From the NCBI GenBank assembly GCA_017444825.1, contig JAFSVU010000004.1:59025-123024 (forward strand): a DNA stretch of 64,000 nucleotides, given 5' to 3'. The position numbers and the translations under genes are program-made. Every line of letters starts with the position of its first letter. Positions within the stretch are counted from its first letter, which is position 1. The DNA is from Clostridia bacterium (GTDB taxonomy: Bacteria > Bacillota > Clostridia > UBA1212). The notes beneath the pieces were generated by a model. That model worked only from the letters and a program-made list of their open reading frames with translations. It was not told the DNA's origin and did no database searches. This document shows positions 38,904-54,017 of this stretch, in pieces.

Positions 38904-39002
38904 GTTGCGCTCCTGTTTACGGTTTGGTTTTTGTTATTCTACAGTTTTTGAGAGGGTTTTTCAATGGCGGAGAAAAGGTTTGTCACAAAATGCCGGCATA
39001 TT

Positions 39003-39203
39003 TCAGAAGCTCCCTCTTTTCGCCAGCAGTTCATATTTCTCCCTGATCAGGATCCGCTCCGCCATCTCTTTAACTTTCAGCTTGTCAGTCTTTTTCAGGC
39101 CTCTCATCAGATAAGCTAACGAGTCAGACTGGCCAAAAGAATCCCGAGTTTCTTTCAGTTCTACGATGTCTTTACTGGATTTTACTGTATTAAACTCTTT
39201 CAT
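39003..39203 (-). CDS. Hypothetical 66-aa protein downstream of the TIR-NACHT-LRR gene
   Basis: The ATG at 39203 lies 6 nt after a perfect GGAGG. A TATAAT (39257-39262, minus) lies upstream. No recognisable motif. Confidence 0.5.
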   Translation of the reverse strand: MKEFNTVKSSKDIVELKETRDSFGQSDSLAYLMRGLKKTDKLKVKEMAERILIREKYELLAKRGSF

Positions 39204-39321
39204 AATGATCCTCCTTTGTTGCCAACAGTTTTGTTGGTTTTTAACATATAGCTGCAATTATACTCTGATTTTGACAACTTTAATCTTGAGCAGTGTTTGT
39301 TGTTTTTCAAATTAACGCACT

Positions 39322-42300
39322 TCAACTGCCGGTGTAGATATAGATGATTTCTGCGTTGGCAAGGCATTCGTTTCCGGTTTCTACGTCAATACTCTGCCAC
39401 TGTTCTAACGATCCTTGGTAAAAGACTGACTGAAGCCCGATGCAATCCCAGAACGCTCCATGTCCGATTTCTGTAATTCCGGCATGCATTCCCACTCGTT
39501 TAAGCCCCGTGCAATATGAAAATGTTCTTGCGCTGATTACTTTTACTTTGCATGGTATGTCTATCTCTGTAAGCCCGGTGCAACCTGCAAATGCCCAGTC
39601 TCCGATTTCGGTAACACTGTCGGGTATTACTAAGCTTGTAAGTGCGGCGCAACCTGCAAATGCCCTATTCCCGATCTCGGTAACACTGTCGGGTATGGTT
39701 ACATTTTCAAGTTCTTTGCAACCGCGGAATGCACTGTCTCCGATTTTAGTCACACTGCCATCATCAGGTATAATACTATTTTTGCACCCTACAACCAGCT
39801 CTTTCGTATCCGCCTTTATAATACAATCATTTCGTTCATAATATCTCTCTGTTTTGGAATCAACAGATTGGACAGTTATTTTTTTGAGTTCCGTACAAAT
39901 CGAGAAGGCTCCGTATCCTATCTCAGACACACCGGCAGGTATGTCTATACTCGTAAGGCCTGTACATCCCGTGAATGCATTGGCTCCGATTTCCGTTCCG
40001 TCACCGGTTATCGCCAAAGTTATAAGCCCCGTGCAATTCTTGAACGCAAATTCCCAGATTTTTGTATCATCACTGTTTATCTCTAAACCGGTAAGTCCGG
40101 TACAGCCTTCAAACGCACTTTTCCCAATTTCTTTGATTTTCTCTGTTATTTGAATGTTGCTAAGCCCGGAACAACCGCTGAATGCGCTGTCACCGATCTT
40201 GGTCACACTGCCGTCATCAGGTATAATGCTATTTTTGCATCCGACTATCAACTCTTTCGTATCAGCCTTTATGATGCAATTATTTCGGCTATAGTATTTC
40301 CCAATTCCGGAGTTTACAGAATGAACCGTTAGTTTTTCGATTTCATTACAGCCAGCGAAAGCGCCGTATTCAATCTTCGTCACACTGTCAGGTATGTCCA
40401 AACTTGTAAGGCCGGTGCAACCGCTGAATGCACTTTGTCCGATTTCTGTTCCGCTGCCGGTTATCTCCACATTCGTAAGTTCATTGCAGTCGCTGAATGC
40501 AAAACCTCCGATTTTTGTTTTGTTGCCTGTTATCTCTATGCTCGTAAGGCCGGTGCAACCGCGGTATGCAGCATTAGTTATTTCTGTCCCGTTGCCGGTT
40601 ATTTTAACATCTGTGAGTGCTTTGTTATTACTGAAGGCTTCTTCTCCGATTCTTGTTCCGTTTCCGGTTATTTCTATGTGCTTAAGTCCTGTTGTGAATT
40701 CTGTATCAAAGCTCCAGCAGCCGAATGCTCTTCTTCCGATTTCGGTATTATTACCGTGTATTGTTATTTTTGTAAGGCTTCTGCAACCGCTTAATGCTGC
40801 TTCTCCAATTTTCGTAACCCTATCATGAATACCTATGCACGAGAGATTTGTGCAGCAAAAAAACGCATGTTCTCCGATTATTGTAACGGATCGGGGTATG
40901 TATATGCTCGTAAGACTTGTACGACCGCGGAAGGCAGATTCTTCAATTTGAGTGCCATTGCTTGTAATTCTATAAAGGCCTTTAAAAGTCGTGCACGAAG
41001 CTGCGTCCTTCATTTTTTCTACACAATCTTTAAAGCCAATCGCCTTTTTCCTGTCTTCGTATATTAAGGCCAGTTCAGAATGCATATTGTCGGAGAATAC
41101 AGCTTTCAGTTCTTTTAAAAGTTCTTTCCTCACATAGTTGTATTTCTTTAACCCCTTATGAAGATCAATTTTGTTCTCATTGCTCGTCTCTATATTGTCA
41201 AAAGAATCCTGAAGTATTTTATAAATTGCAGGAAAATAGAATAACTCGGTGTAAGGATTTGTCCCTTTCGCACATTTCCATGCAGGCTTGCCAAAACTTG
41301 AGTCCCATTTTTTCAATATTATGCTTCCGTCAAGATCCTCCACAGATACCGGAATTCGTTTGCGTTCTTTGAGGGAAAGCCCCGTAAGAATTCCTTCACA
41401 GCCTCGATCCATCATTCTTTCCAATATTTGGTTAATAGCCCGGTTTTTAATATGTGGCTTTTCAAACTGTGAAACCGCATCGCAAATAAGATCGTAATCA
41501 GGCTCATTTACCGACTGGAATCCCTCTACCAAAGACTCTGCGATATAGCTCTCCTTTGAATACTTGTCGCTGAGGAGAAGCAACGTCTTTTTAACGCTTT
41601 TCCAGTACTCAGAGTCAGATTTGGCTACTTCAAAGTCTTTGATCCTGACCGATTTATTTTTTATTGTTAGCCAAAGATATAGAGCATCTGAACTGGTTTC
41701 TCCATTTTTGGAATTGTCACCTTTGGCATTATTCTTGATCTCAGTCCACAAAAAATATGCAGCATAAGCCTCGGCAAAAAACTCGTGACTGAAACCGGTT
41801 TCATTACAAAGCTTGCTTTCCTCGAAAAACCGGTTAAACTTTTCCTTATACTTCGAATAATAATCCTCGTTAACTTCTTCGGCGCACCTTATAAGCATAT
41901 GCGAATCGATTTTCGGAAAAGGTTTATTGGCATCTTTCGCCCTGTAGATTTTATACGAAAGACATCCCAGGATCGATTTTATATCATCCTCGTTTATAAA
42001 CTCCCACCCGGTAGGGTTTTTATGCAATTCCCGATATATCACACTGTTTATGGCATACTCCACAGCGTCAAAACGAGTCTCCGGGAGGGAATCCTCCACG
42101 AGGGGATCGTAGGCGGTGAAGATCGTGAATAAAAAGAACGGGTTTCGCGATATGTCCTTGTAATCTTTGACCGTTTGCTCTTTTTCGTTTATTTTTTCGA
42201 AAAAAGTATCTTTTTTCTCATCCGATTCATGCCTGACATTGGCGAGCTTCAAAATATACTTGTCTCTCTTTTCATTGTCAAAATATTGGACCTTGTATCT

Positions 42301-43581
42301 TCTGACGAGAGTCATTGGCGTTTGGTCAATCATCATGTCGTTTACTGACGCCAATCGTTTCTGCCCCGGCCTTGAAGTAAACAATATATGCACTCCGGCG
42401 GTTTTGTGGTTCGAAATGAGGACGCTGTTGATCTTATCGACCAGAATATCCATGGTGCTTGCCGGGACCTCATCCATCGCGTCGAAAATGAATAAAGGCC
42501 TGCAGTTTCTCAGAACAGCTTCAAAACCCGGCTGGCTGAGGTCAATCCCCTTAAAGAGCGCTCTATAGAAGTCTTCGTCATTGGCGAGACTTTGGATAAA
42601 ATCCTTGCACTCGTAATACATCGGGAAAAACTCATTCTTTGAGAAACCGAGTTTTTTCGTTCTTTCGCCAAGGTCTATGCACAGTTTTTTGACCGCCAGC
42701 GACTTTCCCTGACCTGCATCGCCAACCAGCACCGCATACTTGTCTCTCATCAGCTGCTCCCTAAGATTTTCATCCTCGAACAGCTCTTTAGGAAGTTCTT
42801 CATGCTTTTCCCGGGCGGTCTTTATTTCTTCATCCGTATGAAGTCTTTCCAGCGTCACCGGCACATAGGTTCCCTCAATCGTAAGACCCGAATCGTCAAA
42901 CCCTTCTCCCGGAATGAATATTGCGTTTCGCTTTTTCTTCTGCGCATCAAGTACGTCGGCATAGTAACCGACCTCTGATTTTTCAAACAGCCTGTCAAAA
43001 ATAACGTCGGCGAAACTGCTCAAAGCTTCATCGTCAATATCCAGTGTCTTTAATTTCACGCCCTGGGACCTTCTGAGATAAAGCTTTACCTTTTCAAGAT
43101 CCTCTTTGGCAACCTCTTCGGCCTTTTTCGAAAGTGCCTCGTCAAAATGGTCTTCGAGATCAGCCCCGCTCACAAGTTTAAGGAGCCGCTCCGCTTCATC
43201 CTTCGGATAATCTAACTTCTGAGTTGTTGAGTTGGTTTTAAAATCCAGAAATACAGGTACGACTCTTGCTCCGTTTTCGAGTGCCGTCAAATATTCAAAC
43301 AGGCAAAAGTCTTTGTCGAGATCGCGGTTGCTTTCGGGGCCGAAGCTGATATAACTATCGGTGACCACAGGCATGAAAACATACGCACCACCGGCACTTT
43401 TTCTGAGATTTTCCACAAAATCACCGCTGCGCAATTCATTCTTATCGTAAAAAACATGAAGTCCTGTCTCAGCTTTTATTCTATTTATAAAGGAATTGAA
43501 AACCTCCTCCGTAGCGGCTTCCTTGTCGCCCCAGCGGTAGCTCAGAAATATATGGTATTGTCTGTCGTCAGTTGAGCTCAT
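39322..43581 (-). CDS. TIR-NACHT(STAND NTPase)-LRR (BspA/LRR_5-type) protein, 1419 aa; candidate NLR-like defence protein
   Basis: TIR elements are YHIFLSYRWGD, HVFYD and DFCLFEY. Walker A is VLVGDAGQGKS (nt 42700-42723), Walker B is LFIFDAMDEV (nt 42466-42495), and the NACHT-like ILFTSRP follows. Residues ~875-1419 are tandem repeats of the ..VTKIGDSAFSGCTGLTSI.IP.. type. Confidence 0.9.
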   Translation of the reverse strand: MSSTDDRQYHIFLSYRWGDKEAATEEVFNSFINRIKAETGLHVFYDKNELRSGDFVENLRKSAGGAYVFMPVVTDSYISFGPESNRDLDKDFCLFEYLTALENGARVVPVFLDFKTNSTTQKLDYPKDEAERLLKLVSGADLEDHFDEALSKKAEEVAKEDLEKVKLYLRRSQGVKLKTLDIDDEALSSFADVIFDRLFEKSEVGYYADVLDAQKKKRNAIFIPGEGFDDSGLTIEGTYVPVTLERLHTDEEIKTAREKHEELPKELFEDENLREQLMRDKYAVLVGDAGQGKSLAVKKLCIDLGERTKKLGFSKNEFFPMYYECKDFIQSLANDEDFYRALFKGIDLSQPGFEAVLRNCRPLFIFDAMDEVPASTMDILVDKINSVLISNHKTAGVHILFTSRPGQKRLASVNDMMIDQTPMTLVRRYKVQYFDNEKRDKYILKLANVRHESDEKKDTFFEKINEKEQTVKDYKDISRNPFFLFTIFTAYDPLVEDSLPETRFDAVEYAINSVIYRELHKNPTGWEFINEDDIKSILGCLSYKIYRAKDANKPFPKIDSHMLIRCAEEVNEDYYSKYKEKFNRFFEESKLCNETGFSHEFFAEAYAAYFLWTEIKNNAKGDNSKNGETSSDALYLWLTIKNKSVRIKDFEVAKSDSEYWKSVKKTLLLLSDKYSKESYIAESLVEGFQSVNEPDYDLICDAVSQFEKPHIKNRAINQILERMMDRGCEGILTGLSLKERKRIPVSVEDLDGSIILKKWDSSFGKPAWKCAKGTNPYTELFYFPAIYKILQDSFDNIETSNENKIDLHKGLKKYNYVRKELLKELKAVFSDNMHSELALIYEDRKKAIGFKDCVEKMKDAASCTTFKGLYRITSNGTQIEESAFRGRTSLTSIYIPRSVTIIGEHAFFCCTNLSCIGIHDRVTKIGEAALSGCRSLTKITIHGNNTEIGRRAFGCWSFDTEFTTGLKHIEITGNGTRIGEEAFSNNKALTDVKITGNGTEITNAAYRGCTGLTSIEITGNKTKIGGFAFSDCNELTNVEITGSGTEIGQSAFSGCTGLTSLDIPDSVTKIEYGAFAGCNEIEKLTVHSVNSGIGKYYSRNNCIIKADTKELIVGCKNSIIPDDGSVTKIGDSAFSGCSGLSNIQITEKIKEIGKSAFEGCTGLTGLEINSDDTKIWEFAFKNCTGLITLAITGDGTEIGANAFTGCTGLTSIDIPAGVSEIGYGAFSICTELKKITVQSVDSKTERYYERNDCIIKADTKELVVGCKNSIIPDDGSVTKIGDSAFRGCKELENVTIPDSVTEIGNRAFAGCAALTSLVIPDSVTEIGDWAFAGCTGLTEIDIPCKVKVISARTFSYCTGLKRVGMHAGITEIGHGAFWDCIGLQSVFYQGSLEQWQSIDVETGNECLANAEIIYIYTGS

Positions 43582-43715
43582 TGGTCCCTCGAAATGTTGT
43601 TACCTTATTTACTTGTCGTTAAAAGACATCATTATCAACATGTTCAATTGTAGCATAATCTCTTATTGAAGAATACTCCTATTTTAAGCAAAGGCAGAGA
43701 CTTAGACTTCCTGTC

Positions 43716-43807
43716 AGTTTACCCGCGTTAAAAAAACGTGTCAATATCAAAAATGAAGTTTCTCGCCTTGGTGTCGACCATAGCCGACAGTAAAACGCAA
43801 AAACTTC
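43716..43807 (-). promoter_or_regulatory. Promoter plus conserved upstream module R1 (in front of the TIR-NACHT-LRR gene)
   Basis: On the minus strand, TTGACA (43739-43744) is followed by 17 nt and TAAACT (43716-43721). The 70 nt from the -35 upward (43738-43807) match 46897-46966 at 61/70 positions by manual alignment. GTGTCAAT-like boxes lie at 43738 and 43771, 33 bp apart. Confidence 0.55.
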
Positions 43808-43847
43808 ATTCAGGTTTCAAAATACACATCCGCAAGAAAGGTTTCTA

Positions 43848-44045
43848 TTATTTCTTCCGCCTCCCGAAAATCGGTGAAACGATATCGGCTCTTCCCGAAC
43901 CAACGTCAACCGCAACGTCATCCGCGACCTTTACCCTCGTTTTTCCGTTTTTACCAAGAATAATGCCACCCGAGAATTCATATTCGACTTCGCCGGTCCT
44001 CCAATTCAGGACAGGCTTAAAAGGATCGTTTTTATCGTTTTTCAT
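43848..44045 (-). CDS. Hypothetical 65-aa protein
   Basis: The ORF has an AAGGAA RBS-like sequence before its ATG. No motif was recognised. Confidence 0.35.
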   Translation of the reverse strand: MKNDKNDPFKPVLNWRTGEVEYEFSGGIILGKNGKTRVKVADDVAVDVGSGRADIVSPIFGRRKK

Positions 44046-44096
44046 TTTCCTTCATCAATCAGTTCTTCTATCTTTTTCATTGCTTCTTCTTTATCC

Positions 44097-44444
44097 TTAC
44101 TGCCGCGGATCATTTCCAGGATCAGCTTCAAAACTTATCCACATGGCGGGCCTCACACCATATTCCCAGTCACAGTACATCCCGCTTGGACGAACTCCGC
44201 CATCATCAGCAACAGTTGCCGCAGGAAAACAGCGGCCATTCGGAACTGCTCCGGAAGACCGTAACCACCACCGACAGTGAGAGTTTCCGTAGGGCTTATA
44301 TTCGACTCCCTCATCTGTCTCAACACCTTTCATTTTAGCATTGGCCGTAGGCAGACACAATCTGGCTTCATTGCTTTCAAAAAGAGTTTTGGCCTCTTTG
44401 ACGCTGAGAAGAAACACTTTATCGATCGTGTCGCTGTTCGACAC
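44097..44444 (-). pseudogene. 5'-truncated paralogue of the 46181-46840 gene (C-terminal WWLRS/DUF6273-like domain only)
   Basis: 44137-44436 aligns without gaps to 46197-46496. Homology stops abruptly at 44436/46496. Only a GTG is available as a start, there is no RBS, and about 105 N-terminal codons are missing. Confidence 0.65.
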
Positions 44445-44546
44445 CTAAACAGATTTTTAATGTTTTTTTGAAAAACCAGCGGTTTTATCCGAACATCTCT
44501 TGATTTGCATCCCACTTCAAGTGCTCATAAGGCCTAGGAATTACGC

Positions 44547-45203
44547 TTATCTTATCTTCCACACGAATGTCAAGAGTGCATAGTCTGAACCGCAATCGAT
44601 GTTATCTTTGTCAAATACTATGGTATTATAGATATATTCATCACACGTCAAGTCGGTCTTATCGCTAAAGTACTTTTCATTTTTGAATGAGTCAAGTACC
44701 TCTTGCTTCTTTTTATTCTCAGTCCACACATCAGCAAGGATAACACCATATATGCTGAAATTCTCTAACCAATCAAGCTTGGCAAATCTCTTGTCCTTTT
44801 CGATGTCCTTTGCAAACTGTTTTATTCTTATGATGTCTTTGGTAATAGCGTTACTTTTTCCGGTTGTGTTCGTAAAGCGTTTCGACTCTATGACAAACAG
44901 GTTTTTTTCTGTTTTATCAATTATGATACAATCGAGGTGGTTGTTCTTTTTCTCGTCAATGAAATCAGCCGCACCTGGCTGTTCATTCTTATCGTCTTGA
45001 TCCGCCTCTTTCTTTGAAAACTGTAGCTCGTACCAGCTTAAAACATCTCTATTGGGAAAGGCATCTTTATATGCTTCCGCAAAATTTACAGTCAGATTAC
45101 GCTCTTGAAGACCGGTTGAACCGATTGAAGGATAGAAAGTCGTCAGAATGCGATTATATCGATTTCTGTAGTTTTCAAAGACTGCGTTTGTCAATATTTC
45201 CAT
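44547..45203 (-). CDS. Predicted PD-(D/E)xK-fold nuclease (hypothetical, 218 aa)
   Basis: Start set at ATG 45203, after GAGGGAAAA; the longer ORF would need a TTG start. The motif LDCIIID-x12-FVIESKR matches a D...ExK pattern, preceded by conserved acidic residues. Confidence 0.6.
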   Translation of the reverse strand: MEILTNAVFENYRNRYNRILTTFYPSIGSTGLQERNLTVNFAEAYKDAFPNRDVLSWYELQFSKKEADQDDKNEQPGAADFIDEKKNNHLDCIIIDKTEKNLFVIESKRFTNTTGKSNAITKDIIRIKQFAKDIEKDKRFAKLDWLENFSIYGVILADVWTENKKKQEVLDSFKNEKYFSDKTDLTCDEYIYNTIVFDKDNIDCGSDYALLTFVWKIR

Positions 45204-45238
45204 TTTTCCCTCGTGTTTACTCAAGTTTTTAGTGTAGT

Positions 45239-46102
45239 TCAATTCATGTTATAACCATTTTCTTTAGTTTGGAACACTTCTTTCCAATAACTTTCACGAG
45301 CTATAATAATATGAGAATCCGTGTTTTTGTTAAATGTCTCTATTATAGTAAACTCAAAATTTTCTTGGAAATACGATTCTCCAACGCGATTGTATAATTC
45401 AATAAGAGCTTTATTCCTTCCGTGCATTGAATCTATGTAGTCGGACCACCTTTGAAGTATACCTTCTTCTCCATACGCCGAACCAATGTAAAACTTACTT
45501 TCTTTTTTATCTGTTAAACAATAGACACCTTTAACACCTTGAAGAGCAGATCTATAATCTGCGTACTTATGCCCTTCAAGAATGTGTTTTAAGGTGGAGT
45601 AAGAAAGATGAACACTATCAAAACCTTGGAATTTGATAGGCTCATAGACGTTTGGAAGAATCTCGGAAACTTCTGCCTCGTCTATTACTGTTGCCAAGTC
45701 AAAAATGTAACGCGCAAATTTATTGCCTTTATGATAGCTGATTATCAATCTGCCTATCAGCCCCTGATAAGCTTCTAACTCAACATGGCCACATGCCCCA
45801 CTATTATTTCTATCCGGAATAGAAGTTATTTCGCCCGCCGAAACCAACAACCACTTATCATCATGTTCTTGAAGCCTTACAAAGCCAAAGCACCATTGGC
45901 CAACTCTTGTGAAGTTTCTATTCCTTCCGTGCACTCCTTGGTGTGAGTGATATGTAAAATCAACATTCCTGTTTTGCTCGTCACTTTCATACCAAATCTC
46001 GAAATGGGTTTTCCCTCCCCATTGCATGTTCAAACCTATTTTTGAATTTGCGATTTGTTCGCTGTTCAAGTGCAAGATATCGTTGAGCATTATTTTTGTC
46101 AT
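45239..46102 (-). CDS. GIY-YIG nuclease-domain protein with uncharacterised ~190-aa N-terminal domain
   Basis: The C-terminal segment GVYCLTDKKESKFYIGSAYGEEGILQRWSDY...ARESYWKEVF...GYN fits GIY-x10-YIG, Arg, Glu and Asn. RBS AGGAG lies 7 nt before the ATG. Confidence 0.8.
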   Translation of the reverse strand: MTKIMLNDILHLNSEQIANSKIGLNMQWGGKTHFEIWYESDEQNRNVDFTYHSHQGVHGRNRNFTRVGQWCFGFVRLQEHDDKWLLVSAGEITSIPDRNNSGACGHVELEAYQGLIGRLIISYHKGNKFARYIFDLATVIDEAEVSEILPNVYEPIKFQGFDSVHLSYSTLKHILEGHKYADYRSALQGVKGVYCLTDKKESKFYIGSAYGEEGILQRWSDYIDSMHGRNKALIELYNRVGESYFQENFEFTIIETFNKNTDSHIIIARESYWKEVFQTKENGYNMN

Positions 46103-46180
46103 AATATTCTCCTTGTTCTATTTTAAGGCAAAAGCACATTCATCGCTTGTTGCTTTCTCGTTTAGTAAGCGATAAAAAGC

Positions 46181-46840
46181 TTACGATTCAAGAGATATCC
46201 ACATGGCAGGTCGCACAGCAAATTCCCAATCACAGTACATTCCGCTTGGGCGAACTCCACCATCATCAGCAACAGTTGCGGCAGGAAAACAACGACCGTT
46301 CGGAACGACTCCGGAAGACCGTAACCACCACAGACAATGAGGGTTTTCGTAGGGCTTATATTCGTCGCCCTCATCTGTCTCAACACCTTTCATTTTAGCA
46401 TAAGCCGTAGGCAGACACAATCTGGCTTCATTGCTTTCAAAAAGAGTTTTGGCCTCTTTGACGCTGAGAAGAAACACTTTATCGATCGTGTCGCTGCCTG
46501 GCTCTATCGTTGTACCAAAATACGAGTCATAAATCGGTTTTTCCTCTACTTTTAAGGCAGTACTGAGAATTCTCTTCTGCTCAGCATCATTAAAGGCAAC
46601 CCGAAAAAAGTCGTTGTTAAGCCACTCGCGGAGTGAACATCTCTCCCAAGGTGCATTTTCGATTGCTTCATCATTGTACTGTTTGCAATCAAGAGCATAT
46701 TCGCTTAAGACAAGGGCCTTGCTATTCTCAACCCTTAGAACACGCCAAACAAGTTCCCGTATATCGCCTTCAGCCGTCGTTGGATATCGGCCGAAAGTGA
46801 TTGTGCGTTTTCCGTTTTCGTCAGTTTTAAAGTAGTCCAT
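46181..46840 (-). CDS. Hypothetical protein with C-terminal Cys/Trp-rich 'WWLRS' domain (DUF6273-like)
   Basis: The 219-aa protein carries ...CLWWLRSSGVVPNGRCFPAATVADDGGVRPSGMYCDWEFAVRPAMWI. RBS GAGGG. The promoter module R2 lies directly upstream. Confidence 0.7.
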   Translation of the reverse strand: MDYFKTDENGKRTITFGRYPTTAEGDIRELVWRVLRVENSKALVLSEYALDCKQYNDEAIENAPWERCSLREWLNNDFFRVAFNDAEQKRILSTALKVEEKPIYDSYFGTTIEPGSDTIDKVFLLSVKEAKTLFESNEARLCLPTAYAKMKGVETDEGDEYKPYENPHCLWWLRSSGVVPNGRCFPAATVADDGGVRPSGMYCDWEFAVRPAMWISLES

Positions 46841-46874
46841 TGCGGTTATCCCTCGTCTTTTTTTATCTATTTAC

Positions 46875-46966
46875 AGTTTATGAAAGCACAGAATTGGTGT
46901 CAATATCAAAAATGAAGTTTTCTGCGTTGGTGTCAATCATGACCGACAATAAAACGCAAAAACTTC
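46875..46966 (-). promoter_or_regulatory. Promoter plus conserved upstream module R2 (in front of 46181-46840 and the nuclease pair)
   Basis: On the minus strand, TTGACA (46898-46903) is followed by 17 nt and TAAACT (46875-46880). GTGTCAAT boxes lie at 46897 and 46930. It is the homologue of R1, exactly 3159 nt away. Confidence 0.55.
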
Positions 46967-47026
46967 GTTAAATTTCACCGATCTAATTACAACTATCTTT
47001 TATCAGATATCGCAGACCCGCATTGA

Positions 47027-47683
47027 TCATTTATACACATCTTCCGGAATGCCCGCTCTGATGTATCTCTCAAAGGGACTGTCAGTTTCCCAGTTCCAAC
47101 CTTCTGGCATGCTATCTTTTGAGATCCGGTTTACAAGGCTGTCTTCTTCCGTTGTCAAAAACACCTGTGGTATATTGGCGCTCATGTACTCAATGTACCT
47201 TAAGGCATTATCAGCATTTTTCTTTTCGATATATTCAAGCAGCTTTAATTTCGAATAATTGACGGGGACAGGGTGCTCATAAACACCGCTTTTTATCTTC
47301 CTTTTTCTCTCTTTTTGCTTTTGTGAAAGTCTATGAATTCTTCTGAATGTTTGTCCTTGCTGCTTTGTGAGCCAGGATAGAAGTTCCTCGCTGAAAGCCT
47401 CATCGCCGTACCGGATCAAAAGGAGAACGTACTCCTTGGCGATTTCGACAACAGACAGACTCATGTTACCCGGCCGAACCTTTGGCTCACCGTAGAACGG
47501 CATATCAATCTTTTTTGATAGATCACAGCGCAATCTGTAAACTAACTCTTCAGAAGCGCCTACGTCTCTCAGAAAAGTGTTCACCCTTTCCTTAAAGCTT
47601 TGAACTTCAGGGCTGTTTCTTCTTGCTTCAAGTTTTTTCGTATAAACGGTATTTGGCACACTGTCACCATCCAGGTCGGTCAT
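47027..47683 (-). CDS. Hypothetical 218-aa protein translationally coupled to the WYL regulator
   Basis: The ATG at 47683 overlaps the WYL gene stop (ATGA at 47680-47683). The centre is basic (KQKERKRKIK). The C-terminal segment YEHPVPVN...LTTEEDSLVN is of unknown meaning. Confidence 0.65.
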   Translation of the reverse strand: MTDLDGDSVPNTVYTKKLEARRNSPEVQSFKERVNTFLRDVGASEELVYRLRCDLSKKIDMPFYGEPKVRPGNMSLSVVEIAKEYVLLLIRYGDEAFSEELLSWLTKQQGQTFRRIHRLSQKQKERKRKIKSGVYEHPVPVNYSKLKLLEYIEKKNADNALRYIEYMSANIPQVFLTTEEDSLVNRISKDSMPEGWNWETDSPFERYIRAGIPEDVYK

Positions 47684-48660
47684 TCCACAGCTTCCCACGC
47701 CTGCCGCACAAACTCCCTGTACTCCTCCACGACCTCGTCCGGCCCGGTCACCTTCACCTTGCCGCCAAAACCCACGATCCAGCAGAAGAGCACGTTGTTC
47801 ACAGCCACCTCGACCGTAGCCTCAAACGTGCCGTCGCCCCGCAGGAACGTGTCCACCTTCTCGCCAAACCGGTCCACAATTGCATCCATCACCGAATTGT
47901 CGCAGATAAGCCTCACCCGCTTGCGCTCGGAATTAAACATGTGCGGCATTGTGTTGATGTGTCGCTCCAGGTCAAACCCCTTCTCCAGCGGGATCGCGTC
48001 ATCCTGCAAAATCTCCGGCGGCGCCACCATCCTGTCAACGCGAAAACTCGTCAAGCCCTCATACTTCTCATACCGGCCGATAACGTAGTAAAAATCGCCG
48101 TTCCACACCAGTCTGTAGGGACTGAAGCAATACCTGTACCCGTCGTGGCGCAGCTTCCTCTGCTTCTTCTCGTTGTACTCAAAATACTGGAACGAGATCT
48201 GCTTCTTTTGGTTTATCGCATCGTTGACCGCCTCAATGATCCCCAGCACTTTCTTGTTGGTCCCCTTGATCCGCCTCTCGACCGAAACGTTTCGAACCAG
48301 CTTTTCTGACCCGTGCTTTCCCGCAAGCGCAGTGATCTTCGCGATCAGCTTCTTGCTCTGAGTCGCCGGTATAAATTTGCACGACGCCAATGAATCGATC
48401 ATCAGCCTCATCTCCGCATCGTCAAAGTACCTTTTCCCGAAAAAGTAGCGGTTTTGCGTCGACTTGGTCATCTGAATGTCGAAGCCAAGCTCCTTCAGCA
48501 TCTCGATATCAGCGCCAATGGTCGTCCTGTGCGTAGTCATACCATACTCGTCCTCGAGTATGCGCATCAGCTGCGCCGTCGTCAGAAAATGCTCCGCATC
48601 GGTTCGCTCGAAAAGTATTCTGGCAAGCAGCCAGGGTCGAAGTTTTGCGTCAATGTCCAT
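47680..48660 (-). CDS. HTH-WYL-WCX transcriptional regulator (BrxR/CapW/PafBC-like)
   Basis: The N-terminal wHTH reads FLTTAQLMRILEDEYGMTTHRTTIGADIEMLKELGF. The WYL core is YRLVWNGDFYYVIGRYEKYEGLTSFRVDRM. A C-terminal extension follows. RBS AGGAGAGG is strong. Confidence 0.88.
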   Translation of the reverse strand: MDIDAKLRPWLLARILFERTDAEHFLTTAQLMRILEDEYGMTTHRTTIGADIEMLKELGFDIQMTKSTQNRYFFGKRYFDDAEMRLMIDSLASCKFIPATQSKKLIAKITALAGKHGSEKLVRNVSVERRIKGTNKKVLGIIEAVNDAINQKKQISFQYFEYNEKKQRKLRHDGYRYCFSPYRLVWNGDFYYVIGRYEKYEGLTSFRVDRMVAPPEILQDDAIPLEKGFDLERHINTMPHMFNSERKRVRLICDNSVMDAIVDRFGEKVDTFLRGDGTFEATVEVAVNNVLFCWIVGFGGKVKVTGPDEVVEEYREFVRQAWEAVE

Positions 48661-48746
48661 AATACCTCTCCTTTTAAGGCACTATCTTGGAAACGGCTTT
48701 AACCGATCTGTCGACTTATTCATATCCTTATCATTTTCTATCTATC

Positions 48747-48986
48747 TTAGATTTTGTAAAAAGTAACTCGCTTATTAATCAGATCGGGATCCATCCTATA
48801 CCCGCAGCCTAAAACTCTCGTTGGAAATCCGGCTTTTCTGCCAGAGGGACTCCAATATACTTTGTACTTATATGCCGAATTGCACAATCTGGACCCGATA
48901 ATGTCTTCAATTTCCGCAAAAGAAAGCGTAAAACTGTTTTGGGTCTGATGTCTTAAGTAATAGATGAAGTTATCAAATTTGTTCAT
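48747..48986 (-). CDS. Hypothetical 79-aa protein
   Basis: A strong RBS AGGAGG lies 6 nt before the ATG. No motif was recognised. Confidence 0.6.
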   Translation of the reverse strand: MNKFDNFIYYLRHQTQNSFTLSFAEIEDIIGSRLCNSAYKYKVYWSPSGRKAGFPTRVLGCGYRMDPDLINKRVTFYKI

Positions 48987-49020
48987 TTTGTTCCTCCTCT
49001 TTAATGTTTAGCCTTTTGTT

Positions 49021-49572
49021 TTATTCCGGCAGCATCGCTATCAAAGCGTCCCCGTTTTCCTTGAGCCAGGCATATTTTTCCCTATAATCAGGAAACACAC
49101 GAAGGACCTCATTGTAAAACCTTTTTGAGTGGTTCATCTCTTTCCGGTGGCAAAGTTCGTGGACCACCACGCTGTCAAGCACCTCCGGCGGCGCCAGCAT
49201 AAGCAAGCAGTTGAAATTCAGGTTGCCCTTGCTGCTGCAGCTTCCCCACCTTGATTTCTGCCGGCGTATCGTGATCCTTCCGTAAGTCACACCCACAAGC
49301 GGTGCATAGTGCGCCACGCGCTCCTGAATAACCTCTTTCGCACGACTCGCCAATGCATTTATCTCTTCCTGCGTCAGCTTCCGAACGGATGCCTTTGCCT
49401 GCTCTTTTGCCTGAGCCTTCGCCAGGTGGGTTTCGATCCACTTTTTGTTTTTCAGCATGAAGCGATCGATTTCCTTGTTTGTCGCAAAAAACGGCGCACG
49501 GATGATCAGCTTCCCGCCTCTTATCTCTGCTCCCAGCGTTTTTCGGTTGCTTCGGATCACTTCAAATTCCAT
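49021..49572 (-). CDS. YgjP-like (DUF45/M48-related) zinc metallopeptidase
   Basis: The motif HELCHRKEMNHSKRFY (HExxH...H) is present. Start set at ATG 49572, after GAGG. This family is commonly linked to Type I R-M loci. Confidence 0.85.
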   Translation of the reverse strand: MEFEVIRSNRKTLGAEIRGGKLIIRAPFFATNKEIDRFMLKNKKWIETHLAKAQAKEQAKASVRKLTQEEINALASRAKEVIQERVAHYAPLVGVTYGRITIRRQKSRWGSCSSKGNLNFNCLLMLAPPEVLDSVVVHELCHRKEMNHSKRFYNEVLRVFPDYREKYAWLKENGDALIAMLPE

Positions 49573-49756
49573 CTGTTGCCTCATTATCTCCGTTGCCGTT
49601 ATTATCAGGCGGCTGGGGACTACTTTTCTGATGCAATTCATTTTGTTTCAGTTTCATGATACTAAGGAGCTGTTTCATTAGCTCTTCATCCTCTGGCGTA
49701 ATATCAAAATCGTCATCTGGTTCCTCTATTAATGCTTCAATCTTCCTCATCTTCAT
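49562..49756 (-). CDS. Possible small acidic protein (64 aa)
   Basis: The ORF has no convincing RBS. It overlaps both neighbours. Its composition is strongly acidic. Confidence 0.3.
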   Translation of the reverse strand: MKMRKIEALIEEPDDDFDITPEDEELMKQLLSIMKLKQNELHQKSSPQPPDNNGNGDNEATDGI

Positions 49757-52125: not shown

Positions 52126-52789
52126 TTATTGCGTCGATCTCTGCCCGGAGGACCGCTTGATACGGCAGAGGTTGTACGTAGTGATGTTGATTTCCTGACC
52201 GTAGAAACCGGTGCGGATGGCGTCTTTGCCAAGTACTTTTTCGGCTTTTAAAAGCAGGGAGCCGGAACCGCAGGCCGGATCGTACACCTTGTTGATCTCT
52301 TTTTTTCCAACCGTTCCGAGGCGCGTAAGCAGTTCAGACACGTCAGCGGGAGTAAAGAACTCGCCGCCGGATTTTCCTGCGTTGGAGGCATACATCGTCA
52401 TCAAATATTCGTATGCGTCACCGAAGGCATCAATATCGTGATGTTTGACGTCGCCCAGGTTCATATTGACGATGCCGTCAAGAAGCTTCACAAGCTTTTC
52501 ATTGCGCTTTGCGACAGTTGCACCAAGTTTTTGTTAGAGTTGACATCATAGTCATCAAAAAGACCCGCAAAGCTGTTTTCAGATTCACTTCCCTTGGCAG
52601 ACTCTTCAATGTGCAGAAACACTCTTTCAAGCGTTTCATTAAGGTTTTCGGATATGTAACGTTAAAACATAGTGCCCAGCACATAGTTCTTAAATCCCAG
52701 CCGTCAACAGCTCCGCGCAATTCGTCAGCAATCGCCCAAATCGCACGATGCAGTTCTTCACGTTCCTGTTCCTTCTTCAAATCAGCCAT
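52126..52789 (-). pseudogene. hsdM: Decayed Type I R-M methyltransferase gene (hsdM remnant)
   Basis: The N-terminus reads MADLKKEQEREELHRAIWAIADELRGAVDGWD. A -1 frameshift follows at ~52690. An in-frame TAA sits within GTMF*RYISENL. A second frameshift lies near 52495. The remainder reads GDAYEYLM..GGEFFTP..DPACGSGSLL..YGQEIN..NLCRI, and homology ends at ~52158, before the NPPF motif. Confidence 0.85.
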
Positions 52790-52979
52790 ATACTGACCTC
52801 CGGATGTTAAATCATTATCTCGCAAAACTGCGTAATCAGTTTATTATCGCATTCTGGAAATACCTTTTCAAGCCTCTCATCTGCCAAATAACACTTGCTG
52901 TCGCTTACGCCCGACACCAAAAACATTAATTCTTTCTTTCCGGGATTCAATGGACTATTTAAGTCACATTATCCACCGG

Positions 52980-54017
52980 CTACACCTCTCTCACCTTCAT
53001 AGCCTGGATATCTGCGTATGACCGCCGCAGCAGTTCCGCGCCGCGCTGCACACTGACCTCCTCTTCGTTGACTGCACGGTAAACAAGCTGCTCAAACAGC
53101 GAGGTGTGTTCGGCCTTTATACGGCTCGGCTCGGAGGTTCGCCATCCCGCGCGGGAGGCATTGACGTAAAAATACTCCGCCGCCGCAGCTGAAATGATCC
53201 CGCACAGTTTCGCACGGGTAACAAGCATCATCATGGAGATGCCGTACTCCTCGGCCACAAGCTCCATGTCCTTTGACACGAAAGAGCGCCTGACGCCAAG
53301 CTCACGGATCGCATCGCTTTTCGGGAACAGGAAAGCACCTCCAATGGCGGTAGCCCGGGCTTCGATTTCCTTTTCCTTGAGGCCTTCGGGCCAAGCAAAC
53401 ATCAGATGCGCAAGCTCGTGGACTGCGGTCGAGCGGTTTCTTTCTGCATTCATTTCGGGGTTCAGAACAATGTACGGTCTCTCATTCACGAAGCCGTTCA
53501 TGCCGGAGAATTTGGCGTTTTCGACCGGGCACTCATAAATCAATATCCCTTTTTTTTCGAGTTTTCCGATCAGGCCCTCGATCGGGCCGTCGCTTGCAAA
53601 ACCAAGGTGATCCCGAAGAGCCGCGGCATTCTTCTCGTCGTCCTCAGCCACCCGAAGCACATGGCACTCCGGGGCATTCGGCAATACCTCACCGCCAAGG
53701 ATCTCAACAGTCGTCATAAAGCGGCTGAAATAGTCTTCAACGCTCTCCCGTATGTACTCCCGCTCCATCTGTTTAAGCGATGCAGCCTTACGGAATTCAG
53801 CGTGTCTGAAGGTGATGTTTTCGTCGCGAACGGTCAAAAAGTCCGCAACACGCACGCCAAGCACATCCGCAAGGGCAGACAATATCTCCATATTCGGCTG
53901 ACGCGATCCGTCTTCGTAATGCGTGATCGCCATGGGGGTAACGTTGATTGCCTCGGCAAGGGCTGCCTTGGTCATGTTTTTCCTCAAACGGTAAAATCTA
54001 AGGTTTTTGCTAAACAT
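52980..54017 (-). CDS. XRE-family HTH fused to ImmA/IrrE-type zinc metallopeptidase
   Basis: The HTH reads MTKAALAEAINVTPMAITHYEDGSRQP. HELAHLMF (HExxH) lies in the central domain. RBS AGGAG. Confidence 0.88.
   Translation of the reverse strand: MFSKNLRFYRLRKNMTKAALAEAINVTPMAITHYEDGSRQPNMEILSALADVLGVRVADFLTVRDENITFRHAEFRKAASLKQMEREYIRESVEDYFSRFMTTVEILGGEVLPNAPECHVLRVAEDDEKNAAALRDHLGFASDGPIEGLIGKLEKKGILIYECPVENAKFSGMNGFVNERPYIVLNPEMNAERNRSTAVHELAHLMFAWPEGLKEKEIEARATAIGGAFLFPKSDAIRELGVRRSFVSKDMELVAEEYGISMMMLVTRAKLCGIISAAAAEYFYVNASRAGWRTSEPSRIKAEHTSLFEQLVYRAVNEEEVSVQRGAELLRRSYADIQAMKVREV

What the first reader, a model, noticed from the sequence alone, without database searches (positions are those of the whole stretch)
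43716..46966. A 92-nt promoter/operator-like module present twice, 3159 nt apart, in front of the TIR-NACHT-LRR gene and in front of the nuclease-containing block
On the minus strand both copies carry TTGACA, a 17-nt spacer and TAAACT. R1 has the -35 at 43739-43744 and the -10 at 43716-43721. R2 has the -35 at 46898-46903 and the -10 at 46875-46880. The 70 nt running from the -35 upstream (43738-43807 versus 46897-46966) are identical at 61/70 positions by my manual alignment. The 17-nt spacers are unrelated, so what is conserved is the upstream DNA plus the two hexamers. Each copy contains two ATTGACAC-like boxes (sense strand) spaced 33 bp apart, about 3 helical turns. In R2 they sit at 46897 and 46930; in R1 they sit at 43738 and 43771, the second being TCGACAC. 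The promoter-proximal box includes the -35 hexamer, so a bound protein would occlude RNA polymerase. R2 starts only ~60 nt downstream of the WYL-regulator operon. I infer that both transcription units are co-regulated, plausibly by the adjacent WYL protein, as BrxR and CapW do for BREX and CBASS.
Basis: partly seen in the sequence, partly recalled or inferred. Interest (0 to 1): 0.7.

Follow-up and report, generated by a model that had tools for sequence, protein, structure and literature searches.

The report
Repeated hairpin–promoter module in defence island
A conserved ~110-nt intergenic unit, made of a terminator-like hairpin with an invariant palindrome placed exactly 27 bp upstream of a standard promoter, heads two and probably three neighbouring operons of a clostridial anti-phage island, so they probably share one regulator, but nothing shows yet that it is the neighbouring WYL protein.

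Summary
The repeat is real. R1 (43703-43835) and R2 (46859-46993), both on the minus strand, match at 61/70 positions, and both carry TTGACA-17-TAAACT.

It belongs to a small family. I found eight copies: three in the window, counting a diverged R5 at 52822-52965, and five on related metagenome contigs. All are intergenic and point at the downstream gene.

Three things are conserved:
- a long hairpin whose tip is TGTCGG-N8-GACA, unchanged in 8/8 copies;
- a fixed 27-nt gap to the -35, even where those 27 nt are unrelated;
- TTGA and TAAACTG, with an unconserved spacer between them.

The distal box is half of the palindrome, and the proximal box is simply the -35.

Homology between related islands breaks at the 5' edge of R, so cassettes are exchanged with R at their head. 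R5 heads the gene array that contains the WYL gene.

The WYL protein resembles the activators DriD and PafBC more than BrxR or CapW. PafB recognises tGTCgg. However, four loci with WYL orthologues (64-85% identical) have no R.

Verdict: the promoters are supported and co-regulation is plausible. WYL is the best candidate regulator, but this is unproven.

The parts
43703..43835 (-). R1, the whole module in front of the TIR-NACHT-LRR gene
   Evidence: covariance-model score 115 bits
43752..43810 (-). R1 hairpin, AAUGAAGUUUUUG...AAACUUCAUU; the U/A-rich run AUUUUUGAUA at 43745-43754 overlaps its last pairs
   Evidence: fold -29.9 kcal/mol, z = -5.0; per-copy folds
43772..43789 (-). R1 apical palindrome TGTCGGCTATGGTCGACA, an exact TGTCG-N8-CGACA
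43739..43744 (-). R1 -35 hexamer TTGACA, 27 nt after the palindrome
43716..43721 (-). R1 -10 hexamer TAAACT, followed by an invariant G
46859..46993 (-). R2, the whole module in front of the DUF6273-UzuA-p231 unit
   Evidence: covariance-model score 138 bits
46914..46966 (-). R2 hairpin, GAAGUUUUUGCG...CGCAGAAAACUUC, followed by AUUUUUGAUA at 46904-46913
   Evidence: fold -20 to -21 kcal/mol, z = -2.4 to -2.8
46931..46948 (-). R2 apical palindrome TGTCGGTCATGATTGACA
46898..46903 (-). R2 -35 hexamer TTGACA
46875..46880 (-). R2 -10 hexamer TAAACT
52822..52965 (-). R5, a diverged third copy. Palindrome TGTCGGGCGTAAGCGACA at 52899-52916, a 27-nt gap, TTGAAA at 52866-52871, a 17-nt spacer, GATAAT at 52843-52848, and TAAACTG at 52837-52843, sharing T 52843 with GATAAT
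   Evidence: nhmmer E = 0.0085 with a model built from R1-R4 only; spacing; its own hairpin is weak
39322..43581 (-). TIR-NACHT-LRR(BspA) gene, 1419 aa, driven by R1
   Evidence: Pfam TIR_2, NACHT, LRR_5
38974..43839 (-). Replacement segment that is absent from the sister island L025. It begins about 10-15 nt upstream of the R1 hairpin and ends at the SpoIIE promoter
46181..46840 (-). DUF6273 gene, 219 aa, first gene after R2
   Evidence: orthologues on L006, L007 and L025 also have an R upstream
45239..46102 (-). UzuA-like GIY-YIG protein, 287 aa
   Evidence: PADLOC UzuA E = 1.9e-46; Pfam GIY-YIG
44547..45242 (-). 231-aa gene with no family match (p231); its start overlaps the uzuA stop
44097..44444 (-). 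DUF6273 C-terminal remnant, one arm of the 310-nt 91.6% repeat with 46187-46496
43848..44045 (-). Conserved 65-aa ORF (p65) just upstream of R1. Its homologue sits directly behind R7 on L015
47680..48660 (-). wHTH-WYL-WCX regulator, 326 aa, the candidate trans factor
   Evidence: Pfam WYL and WCX; predicted fold matches DriD at 1.3e-13, PafBC at 2e-13, BrxR at 5e-8
47027..47698 (-). 223-aa gene (p223) overlapping the WYL stop; no family match; R2 starts 50-60 nt after its stop
52126..52789 (-). Two hsdM remnants (96 aa and 121 aa) directly behind R5. They open a tightly packed co-directional array that runs to WYL and p223
   Evidence: NCBIfam hsdM; Pfam N6_Mtase; gene spacing

Best explanation
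R is a conserved intergenic junction module of about 110 nt. It has three parts.

1. A hairpin of about 55 nt followed by a U-rich run. This insulates the unit from upstream transcription in the manner of an intrinsic terminator.
2. At the tip of that hairpin, an 18-bp palindrome, TGTCGG-N8-GACA (consensus TGTCG-N8-CGACA). It is held exactly 27 bp upstream of the -35, so its centre is near -71.5.
3. A sigma-A-type promoter: an A/T-rich UP-like stretch, TTGACA, 17 bp, then TAAACT.

Three such modules head three successive minus-strand units of the island:
- R5 heads the hsdM remnants, SLFN/AlbA_2, YgjP, DUF7662, WYL and p223.
- R2 heads DUF6273, UzuA, p231, the DUF6273 remnant and p65.
- R1 heads TIR-NACHT-LRR.

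One dimeric DNA-binding protein that recognises the palindrome would therefore tie the three units together. The DriD/PafBC-like WYL protein encoded in the first unit is the best candidate. From -71.5 it would more plausibly act by contacting or obstructing the RNA polymerase alpha-CTD at the UP-like region than by occluding the core promoter.

Cassettes in this island are gained and lost with R at their 5' end.

Shown: the anatomy, the conservation pattern, the family, and the breakpoints. Inferred: promoter activity, termination, protein binding, and the identity of the binding protein.
For: Promoter
- TTGA of the -35 and TAAACTG are invariant in 8/8 copies. TAAACT lies 17 nt from the -35 in 7/8. 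In R5 the hexamer at 17 nt is GATAAT.
- The spacer is at 40% identity and both flanks at 34-40%, which is chance level.
- Every copy is intergenic, points at the downstream gene, and lies ahead of its start codon.
- The 24-nt block from the UP-like stretch through the -35 also occurs in front of a tRNA-Leu gene in Caproiciproducens sp. R1.

Hairpin
- Fold energies are -17 to -29 kcal/mol in six copies, each followed by AUUUUUG(A/G)UA.
- 77.7% of cells pair, against 40-53% when the partners are slid by 1-3 columns. Nine pairs show changes on both sides, for example GAAG/CUUC becoming GGGG/CCUC in R7.
- In R4 the apical stem alone is followed by UUUUGUUUU.
- Five copies lie 32-130 nt after the stop of a co-directional gene.

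Palindrome as a DNA site
- TGTCGG and GACA are invariant in 8/8 copies, including R4 and R5, whose outer stems have diverged.
- The gap to the -35 is 27 nt in 8/8, although in R4 and R5 those 27 nt are unrelated; R4 matches R2 at 9/27.
- An exact TGTCG-N8-CGACA is expected about 0.02-0.1 times per locus. It occurs in the window (twice), L014, L015 and L019.
- On L019 it is a perfect 10-bp inverted repeat with no U-run, 19 nt before the promoter of a LexA-like gene and about 1.8 kb downstream of a 62% WYL homologue.
- On L033 (WYL 52% identical) GGTGACG-N8-CGACACC lies between a classic terminator and the promoter of the operon that contains the WYL gene.

WYL as the candidate
- R6 and R7 lie 2-3 kb downstream of 81-82% WYL orthologues.
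- R5 heads the array that contains the WYL gene.
- The predicted fold is full-length wHTH-WYL-WCX, closest to DriD and PafBC.
- The PafB HTH recognises tGTCgg with an invariant GTC (PMC8635444). DriD binds ATACGAC-N7-GTCGTAT (PMC13004042).
- BrxR controls two operator boxes within one defence island (PMC9122601).

Cassette boundary
- Homology between the window and L025 stops about 10-15 nt before R1.
- Homology with L006 starts at the first base of R.
- L014 and L015 share only the 65-75-nt core with the window.
Against: - No transcription or binding data exist.
- The sample is small: eight copies, and only R4 and R5 are deeply diverged, so the invariant positions may partly reflect shared ancestry.
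- R5 is a weak match (E = 0.0085), and its hairpin is not stable.
- R7 follows a divergent gene, so no terminator is needed there.
- WYL orthologues on L013 and L016 (85%), L018 (64%) and L026 (80%) have no R or palindrome in the 4-10 kb of flank held on each side. The five closest orthologue loci have no hairpin directly after the WYL gene.
- R3 has unrelated DNA upstream.
- The palindrome's half-site orientation and position (-71.5) differ from DriD (overlapping the -35), PafBC (-26), and BrxR, whose R-BOX1 lies between the promoter and the gene.
- An HTH_3 + sigma70_r4 gene tracks R at least as well as WYL does: it is present in the window, L014 and L015 and absent from the five independent R-less loci L013, L016, L018, L019 and L026.
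- The -35 and the UP-like stretch are near consensus, which is unusual for an activator-dependent promoter.
Confidence: 0.5

Rival explanations
1. Shared ancestry only. R1, R2 and R5 are paralogous copies of one strong, unregulated promoter with the terminator in front of it. They were carried along when cassettes were copied or exchanged. The similarity then implies no common regulator.
For: - The region shows recent recombination: the 310-nt 91.6% DUF6273 duplication, and the presence or absence of the UzuA/p231 and NLR segments relative to L025.
- The -35 is consensus, with an UP-like stretch identical to that of a tRNA promoter.
- The hairpin plus U-run is explained fully by termination.
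Against: - The palindrome arms are invariant, and the 27-nt gap is kept, in R4 and R5 where all surrounding sequence has diverged to chance level.
- The same palindrome occurs without a U-run on L019, and next to a separate terminator on L033.
- Strong constitutive expression of a TIR-NACHT-LRR protein and a GIY-YIG nuclease would be risky for the cell. This last point is inference.
Confidence: 0.27
2. The adjacent WYL protein is a BrxR/CapW-type repressor that binds two direct ATTGACAC boxes 33 bp apart, and the proximal box occludes the -35.
For: - ATTGACAC occurs at 43738, 46897 and 46930.
- A WYL gene lies upstream of R2.
- BrxR and CapW repress defence operons (PMC9122601, PMC11662680).
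Against: - The boxes are not conserved as direct repeats in R1, R3, R4, R5, R6 or R7.
- The distal box is half of an inverted repeat.
- The proximal box equals the -35 hexamer, whose conservation needs no further explanation.
- Four ATTGACAC matches in the window against 1.8 expected is not significant; 12 of 100 shuffles reached four.
- The protein is structurally nearer to DriD and PafBC than to BrxR or CapW.
Confidence: 0.06
3. The palindrome is bound by a regulator other than WYL. Candidates are the HTH_3 + sigma70_r4 protein (57419-57877), the HTH_3/Peptidase_M78 protein just upstream of R5 (52980-54017), and Spo0A, because the half-sites resemble the 0A box TGTCGAA (recalled from memory).
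For: - The HTH_3 + sigma70_r4 gene with a 420-550-aa partner is present in all three large R-bearing loci and absent from the five independent R-less loci.
- R5 lies 64 nt after the HTH/M78 gene.
- The R6 half-site, read on the other strand, is TGTCGAA.
Against: - The HTH_3 + sigma70_r4 proteins are only 34-47% identical to one another, and their own promoters carry no palindrome.
- No HTH/M78 gene is present on L014 or L015.
- Spo0A is known to bind tandem boxes rather than inverted ones (from memory).
- The numbers are far too small for a phylogenetic-profile argument.
Confidence: 0.12
4. R is a recombination site or a mobile-element end, for example an attC-like folded site or a MITE. Its promoter-like hexamers would be incidental.
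For: - Homology breakpoints between related islands coincide with the 5' edge of R.
- The module is an imperfect palindrome of attC-like size.
- The order of cassettes behind R differs between loci.
Against: - The gene tables for the island (32-57 kb) show no integrase, transposase or IntI-like gene.
- No attC R''/R' boxes (RYYYAAC, GTTRRRY) are visible by eye.
- Not every cassette junction carries an R; for example DUF6273-p65 on L025 does not.
- Only 1-3 copies occur per locus, and there are none in plasmid, phage or viral collections.
- The strict conservation of TTGA and TAAACTG with a free 17-nt spacer is a promoter signature.
Confidence: 0.05

Closest known systems
BrxR R-BOX1 and R-BOX2 in the pEFER defence island (PMC9122601)
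   Same: One wHTH-WYL-WCX regulator, and two related inverted-repeat sites in front of two transcription units of one defence island. The regulator is encoded in the island.
   Different: - BrxR sites are 11-bp arms with a 5-bp spacer. R-BOX1 lies between the promoter and the gene and acts by steric repression.
- Here the arms are 5-7 bp with an 8-bp spacer, centred near -71.5, embedded in a terminator-like hairpin.
- The regulator gene is the next-to-last gene of its array rather than the first, and the protein is structurally nearer to DriD and PafBC.
DriD of Caulobacter crescentus (PMC13004042, PMC10853764)
   Same: It is the best structural match for the window's WYL protein (E = 1.3e-13). 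It is a homodimer that binds a pseudo-palindrome of similar size (7-N7-7 against 7-N8-7 on L019) with a GTCG/CGAC core. It controls several promoters.
   Different: - The DriD site overlaps the -35, and DriD activates by contacting the beta subunit and alpha-CTD.
- Its half-sites point the other way (ATACGAC-N7-GTCGTAT).
- Its regulon is DNA-damage genes, not defence cassettes.
PafBC -26 element, tGTCgg(N10)tA(N3)T (PMC8635444)
   Same: The hexamer TGTCGG, invariant in all eight R copies, equals the element read by the PafB wHTH. PafC is the best sequence match in the PDB.
   Different: - PafBC is a heterodimer.
- Its site is non-palindromic, replaces the -35 (sigma adaptation), and lies 10 nt from the -10.
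- R has a canonical -35, and its TGTCGG lies about 60 nt upstream of the -10.
- A hexamer match could be chance.
Intrinsic terminator placed directly before the next promoter (ordinary operon junction)
   Same: A hairpin followed by a U-run 30-130 nt after a stop codon, immediately followed by a -35 and -10.
   Different: Ordinary junctions are not conserved as an 80-87% identical block in front of unrelated genes. They also do not keep an invariant loop-proximal palindrome at a fixed distance from the -35.
Integron attC sites and chromosomal cassette arrays
   Same: A repeated imperfect palindrome of about 60-70 nt at the borders of exchangeable cassettes.
   Different: R sits at the 5' end of cassettes and carries its own promoter. 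There is no integrase, there are no R'/R'' boxes, and not every junction has an R.

Membership tests
Sigma-70/sigma-A promoter | -35 and -10 hexamers close to TTGACA/TATAAT with a 16-18 bp spacer | tested here: met
   TTGACA-17-TAAACT scores 10/12 in R1 and R2. In the family the -35 reads TTGACA, TTGACG, TTGATT or TTGAAA, and the spacer is 17 nt.
Sigma-70/sigma-A promoter | Hexamers conserved among homologues while the spacer sequence is free | tested here: met
   TTGA and TAAACTG are at 100% identity. The spacer is at 40% and the flanks at 34-40%.
Sigma-70/sigma-A promoter | A mapped transcription start | not testable with these tools
   This needs 5'-RACE or dRNA-seq.
Intrinsic (Rho-independent) terminator | A stable stem-loop directly followed by a U-run, downstream of a co-directional gene | tested here: inconclusive
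   Six copies meet it: -17 to -29 kcal/mol, followed by AUUUUUG. R4 meets it through the apical stem plus UUUUGUUUU. R5 is weak. R7 has no co-directional upstream gene. The stem is unusually long and A/U-rich.
Conserved RNA/DNA hairpin | Base pairs maintained by compensatory change | tested here: met
   77.7% of cells pair against 40-53% for slid controls, and nine pairs show double changes. Caveat: there are only eight sequences, and the structure was taken from one of them.
wHTH-WYL-WCX transcription factors (the protein at 47680-48660) | WYL and WCX domains | tested here: met
   Pfam WYL 3.1e-12 and WCX 3e-11.
wHTH-WYL-WCX transcription factors (the protein at 47680-48660) | An N-terminal winged HTH and the full-length architecture | tested here: met
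   Pfam HTH_11 is only sub-threshold, E = 0.034. However, the AlphaFold model (pLDDT 79.5) aligns over about 340 columns with full-length DriD, PafB/C, BrxR and CapW.
BrxR/CapW-type operator | Inverted repeat overlapping or downstream of the promoter of the regulator's own operon | tested here: not met
   The palindrome lies 27 bp upstream of the -35. The 86-nt gap directly upstream of the WYL gene holds no copy of it.
BrxR/CapW-type operator | Regulator gene immediately upstream of the system it controls | tested here: inconclusive
   This holds for R2 in the window and on L025. It does not hold for R3, R6 or R7, which are 2-3 kb away. R is absent from four WYL orthologue loci.
DriD/PafBC-type activator site | Site overlapping the -35 (DriD) or replacing it at -26 (PafBC) | tested here: not met
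   The site is centred near -71.5 and a canonical -35 is present.
DriD/PafBC-type activator site | A GTC-containing half-site read by the wHTH | tested here: met
   TGTCGG is invariant in 8/8 copies. The published motifs are tGTCgg and GTCGTAT. This is a resemblance only.
Any operator | Demonstrated protein binding | not testable with these tools
   This needs EMSA, footprinting or ChIP.
Integron attC | R''/L''-L'/R' boxes with GTTRRRY, and an IntI integrase nearby | tested here: not met
   No such boxes are visible in the sequences (checked by eye). The gene tables for the island show no integrase.
DGR template/variable repeat pair (for the 310-nt DUF6273 repeat) | Mismatches confined to adenines of one copy, and a reverse transcriptase nearby | tested here: not met
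   Of 26 mismatches, 12 are C/T transitions and only 6 involve an A in one copy. Searches show no RT gene.
Known RNA families (Rfam 15) | A covariance-model match | tested here: not met
   Nothing relevant at E <= 1 in 43500-47200.
Uzume defence system (the gene at 45239-46102) | A match to the UzuA profile | tested here: met
   PADLOC UzuA E = 1.9e-46, covering residues 49-287.

The most novel reading that the evidence does not exclude
R is a portable regulatory head that defence cassettes carry with them in these rumen/gut Clostridia. It would combine an insulating terminator, an operator and a promoter. The operator would be read by a DriD/PafBC-like, ssDNA-sensing WYL protein that acts from about -71.5. 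Any cassette that lands in the island would then join an infection- or damage-inducible regulon that includes the regulator's own unit. The about 75-nt conserved core would also serve as the homology patch through which cassettes are swapped.
Probability: 0.2. Interest if true: 0.65.

Novelty: new variant of a known kind. Interest (0 to 1): 0.42.

Why it matters
Regulation of defence islands by WYL proteins is known for BREX and CBASS, where a repressor acts at its own promoter. If the reading here holds, it would show three new things:
- a different geometry, with an upstream palindrome at a fixed distance from the promoter;
- a regulator closer to the activators DriD and PafBC;
- one regulatory head shared by unrelated systems: a decayed type I R-M array, a Uzume-containing operon and a TIR-NACHT-LRR gene.

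It also yields a concrete, cheap experiment: a 30-bp probe and three reporter fusions. It suggests as well how newly acquired toxic defence genes could come under control on arrival.

If the rival 'shared ancestry' reading is right, this is only an ordinary duplicated promoter.

Tried and rejected
- **Widespread repeat.** The 21-mer ACTTCATTTTTGATATTGACA gave one hit in 185,579 species genomes, a tRNA-Leu promoter, and none in viral contigs. A composite pattern gave none in the JGI metagenomes. blastn of R2 against plasmids and phages gave nothing. Two further viral scans returned five random-looking hits and then none.
- **Second metagenome scan.** It failed with an error and was still counted against the cap.
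- **Known RNA family.** None found.
- **Direct ATTGACAC boxes.** They are not conserved across the family and are not enriched in the window.
- **DGR explanation of the DUF6273 repeat.** Rejected, because the mismatches show no adenine bias.
- **attC or a mobile element.** Rejected; see the membership tests.
- **R5-like module upstream of an intact hsdM.** The only locus I could fetch (L032) is a frameshift-ridden assembly with no R.
- **More distant WYL loci from IMG/VR (36-44% identical).** None has an R. Two have GGTGT...ACACC terminator hairpins right after the WYL gene. By my rough estimate the chance probability is about 0.02, so this is suggestive only.
- **Covariance-model search of 314 kb of related loci.** It found no further copies.
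- **Synteny as the reason the HTH_3 + sigma70_r4 gene tracks R.** Those proteins are only 34-47% identical, and no other flanking genes are shared. This remains unresolved.

Full report
**1.

On the minus strand, 43738-43810 and 46897-46969 form a two-copy direct repeat with 3159-nt spacing (family D7). blastn-short gives 61/70 identities, E = 2.8e-14, and no further copy at that level in the 64-kb window. With one gap the match extends to 82 nt. Both copies carry TTGACA-17-TAAACT at the stated coordinates. The two spacers agree at only 5/17 positions. ATTGACAC occurs at 43738, 46897 and 46930.

**2. Gene context**

All genes here are on the minus strand. In the direction of transcription they are:
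- an HTH_3/Peptidase_M78 gene;
- two hsdM remnants;
- SLFN/AlbA_2 and three small ORFs;
- YgjP, DUF7662, a WYL-WCX regulator (47680-48660), and an overlapping 223-aa gene (p223);
- **R2**;
- DUF6273, a GIY-YIG protein that matches PADLOC UzuA at 1.9e-46, a 231-aa gene (p231), a DUF6273 C-terminal remnant, and a 65-aa ORF (p65);
- **R1**;
- a 1419-aa TIR-NACHT-LRR gene;
- SpoIIE.

This is a defence island in a spore-forming member of the Clostridia. The closest contigs come from metagenome assemblies whose sample labels suggest rumen studies. That reading of the labels is my own recollection.

**3.

The 55-60 nt upstream of the -35 fold into a long imperfect hairpin. R1 folds at -29.9 kcal/mol (z = -5.0) and R2 at about -21 kcal/mol (z = -2.4 to -2.8). 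The hairpin ends directly before AUUUUUGAUAUU.

**4. R belongs to a family**

- The two close DUF6273 homologues, on short contigs, both have an R upstream. R3 on L006 precedes DUF6273 (95% aa) and UzuA (96%), and the DNA upstream of it is unrelated to the window. R4 on L007 precedes a DUF6273 at 70% aa and follows a GmrSD gene.
- Searching the window for the palindrome found a third copy, R5, at about 52822-52965. A profile built without R5 finds it at E = 0.0085, the best hit on the sense strand apart from R1 and R2 themselves.
- Loci holding WYL orthologues gave three more. R6 on L014 (E = 1e-19) and R7 on L015 (E = 4e-18) each lie 2-3 kb downstream of the WYL gene and in front of other genes. 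An orthologue of R2 lies on L025.
- A covariance model over 314 kb of related loci finds these eight and nothing else, apart from a weak hit on L019.
- R is absent from plasmid, phage, IMG/VR and JGI metagenome collections, and from GTDB representative genomes except for one 21-mer hit. It is therefore a rare, lineage-restricted element, not a widespread repeat.

**5. What is conserved**

- TGTCGG and GACA of the palindrome: 8/8 copies.
- A 27-nt gap from the palindrome to the -35: 8/8. This holds even in R4 and R5, where those 27 nt are unrelated to the rest (R4 matches R2 at 9/27).
- TTGA of the -35 and TAAACTG at the -10: 8/8.
- A 17-nt distance from the -35 to TAAACT: 7/8. In R5 the hexamer at 17 nt is GATAAT.
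- By contrast, the spacer (40%), the 5' flank (39%) and the region downstream of the -10 (34-40%) are at chance identity.

This is the pattern expected of a real promoter with a functional element upstream. The direct-repeat box model does not survive the comparison. The distal box varies (TCGACAC, CAGACAC, TTGACAG, GCGACAG), and the proximal box is simply the -35.

**6. Hairpin or DNA site? Probably both**

For a transcribed hairpin that acts as a terminator:
- Six copies fold at -17 to -29 kcal/mol and are followed by a U-run.
- Pairing is 77.7%, against 40-53% for slid controls, with compensatory and G-U-compatible changes on the sense strand.
- R4 has a textbook apical stem followed by UUUUGUUUU.
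- Five copies lie 32-130 nt behind a co-directional stop codon.

For a DNA site:
- The arm sequence and the distance to the -35 are invariant even though the R5 hairpin is unstable and R7 has no upstream co-directional gene.
- An exact TGTCG-N8-CGACA, expected at most 0.1 times per locus, recurs on L019. There it is a perfect 10-bp inverted repeat with no U-run, 19 nt before a promoter and about 1.8 kb from a 62% WYL homologue.
- On L033 (Subdoligranulum plasmid OY725878, WYL 52% identical) GGTGACG-N8-CGACACC lies after a separate classic terminator and 38 nt before the promoter of the operon that contains the WYL gene.

With a 27-nt gap the palindrome centre is near -71.5. That is upstream of the core promoter, over or just beyond the UP-like stretch.

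**7. Who binds it?**

The WYL protein is the best candidate but is unproven.

For:
- It co-locates with R in the window, L025, L014 and L015.
- R5 heads the tightly packed array that ends with WYL and p223, which would give autoregulation.
- The predicted structure (pLDDT 79.5) aligns full-length with DriD (1.3e-13) and PafB/C (2e-13), ahead of BrxR (5e-8) and CapW (8e-7). The sequence search also puts PafC and DriD first.
- The PafB HTH reads tGTCgg with a strictly conserved GTC (PMC8635444). DriD binds ATACGAC-N7-GTCGTAT (PMC13004042). BrxR controls two boxes in one island (PMC9122601).

Against:
- L013 and L016/L017 (85%), L026 (80%) and L018 (64%) have WYL orthologues but no R or palindrome in the 4-10 kb of flank held on each side.
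- In the five closest orthologue loci nothing resembling R follows the WYL gene.
- R3 has different DNA upstream.
- The position and half-site orientation differ from every characterised WYL site.
- An HTH_3 + sigma70_r4 gene with a large partner gene tracks R at least as well, although those proteins are only 34-47% identical.

**8. R marks cassette boundaries**

- L025, from a sister strain whose WYL protein is 99% identical, has the order ...WYL, p223, R, DUF6273, p65, two small ORFs, SpoIIE. It lacks UzuA/p231, R1 and the NLR gene.
- Its homology with the window stops about 10-15 nt before the R1 hairpin and resumes at the SpoIIE promoter. The 4.87-kb segment of R1, the NLR gene and a 66-aa ORF is therefore a replacement that starts with R.
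- Homology with L006 starts at the first base of R.
- L014 and L015 share only the 65-75-nt core with the window. Behind it they carry genes that sit elsewhere in other islands, a p65 homologue and a homologue of the 92-aa ORF of L025.
- The 310-nt DUF6273 repeat is the scar of one such exchange. It is not a DGR template/variable pair.

**9. Verdict**

- The promoters are well supported by comparative evidence.
- A shared cis element, and hence co-regulation of two and probably three units, is plausible.
- The specific operator model is wrong.
- The WYL assignment is a reasonable but untested hypothesis, with about one-third probability on its own.
- The system is closest to BrxR-type island regulation. 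It differs in site geometry, in the clade of the regulator, and in being fused to a terminator-like hairpin at cassette heads.

Noticed in passing
window 44127-44436 and 46187-46496: A 310-nt direct repeat at 91.6% identity. One arm is the 3' part of the intact DUF6273 gene. The other is a 115-aa remnant downstream of UzuA and p231. It looks like the scar of a cassette insertion by recombination. The mismatches show no adenine bias, so it is not a DGR pair, although literature titles link DUF6273 to DGR targets.
   Followed up: yes
L025 (whole locus) against window 38000-49729: The sister-strain island lacks UzuA/p231 and the R1-NLR segment. In the slot between p65 and the SpoIIE promoter it carries 45-aa and 92-aa ORFs instead. 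This is a presence/absence polymorphism of defence cassettes between strains that are 95-98% identical.
   Followed up: partly
L013, L014, L015, L016, L018, L019, L026 (the WYL gene in each): The WYL gene is a discrete block of about 980 nt, 74-82% identical between loci, whose flanks are unrelated. On L013-L016, L018 and L019 it starts 2-35 nt after the last gene of a different defence operon: McrBC, GmrSD, a Sel1-repeat operon, or a BREX/PglZ system. This differs from the usual BrxR position at the head of the operon.
   Followed up: partly
window 45239-46102 with 46181-46840 and 44547-45242; L006 501-1640: The UzuA-like GIY-YIG gene follows a DUF6273 gene in two independent contexts and overlaps a 231-aa gene that has no family match. 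This may be a multi-gene variant of the single-gene Uzume system.
   Followed up: no
window 52126-52789 and 49021-49641: A decayed type I R-M system. Only two hsdM fragments and the YgjP-like gene remain, whereas L025, L016 and L013 keep hsdR/hsdS upstream of YgjP or WYL.
   Followed up: partly
window 57419-59136; L014 18093-19900; L015 14989-17119: An HTH_3 + sigma70_r4 protein of about 150 aa with an overlapping 420-550-aa partner of no known family recurs in every large R-bearing locus. Its promoter region shares TTTGTCACTTTAC between the window and L014.
   Followed up: partly
L001 4490-4516 (Caproiciproducens sp. R1, CP194790): A 24-nt stretch identical to the UP-like stretch plus -35 of R (AAACTTCATTTTTGATATTGACAC) sits in front of a tRNA-Leu gene, followed after 16 nt by TAATAT. 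It could be chance, a shared strong-promoter design, or promoter capture.
   Followed up: partly
L015 12880-13040: Several copies of a TCGAGTCACTCGAC-like palindromic motif lie in the divergent region between an SLFN/AlbA_2-HATPase_c_4 gene and R7. They look like operators.
   Followed up: no
L028 11125-11155, L027 3600-3625, L030 11050-11075: Downstream of distant WYL homologues (36-44% identical) there is a terminator hairpin with GAGGTG...CACCTC arms, then a promoter, then a shared palindrome (C)GAAGCAGATTGCTTC just after the -10.
   Followed up: no
window 43812-43823 and 38976-38991: An imperfect direct repeat flanks the R1-NLR replacement segment: ATTTTGAAACCT on one side and ATTTTG-TGAC-AAACCT on the other. 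It could be chance or a trace of the joining event.
   Followed up: no
window 43640-43700: The 125-nt leader between the R1 -10 and the NLR start codon contains a second promoter-like site, an extended -10 reading TGCTACAAT.
   Followed up: no
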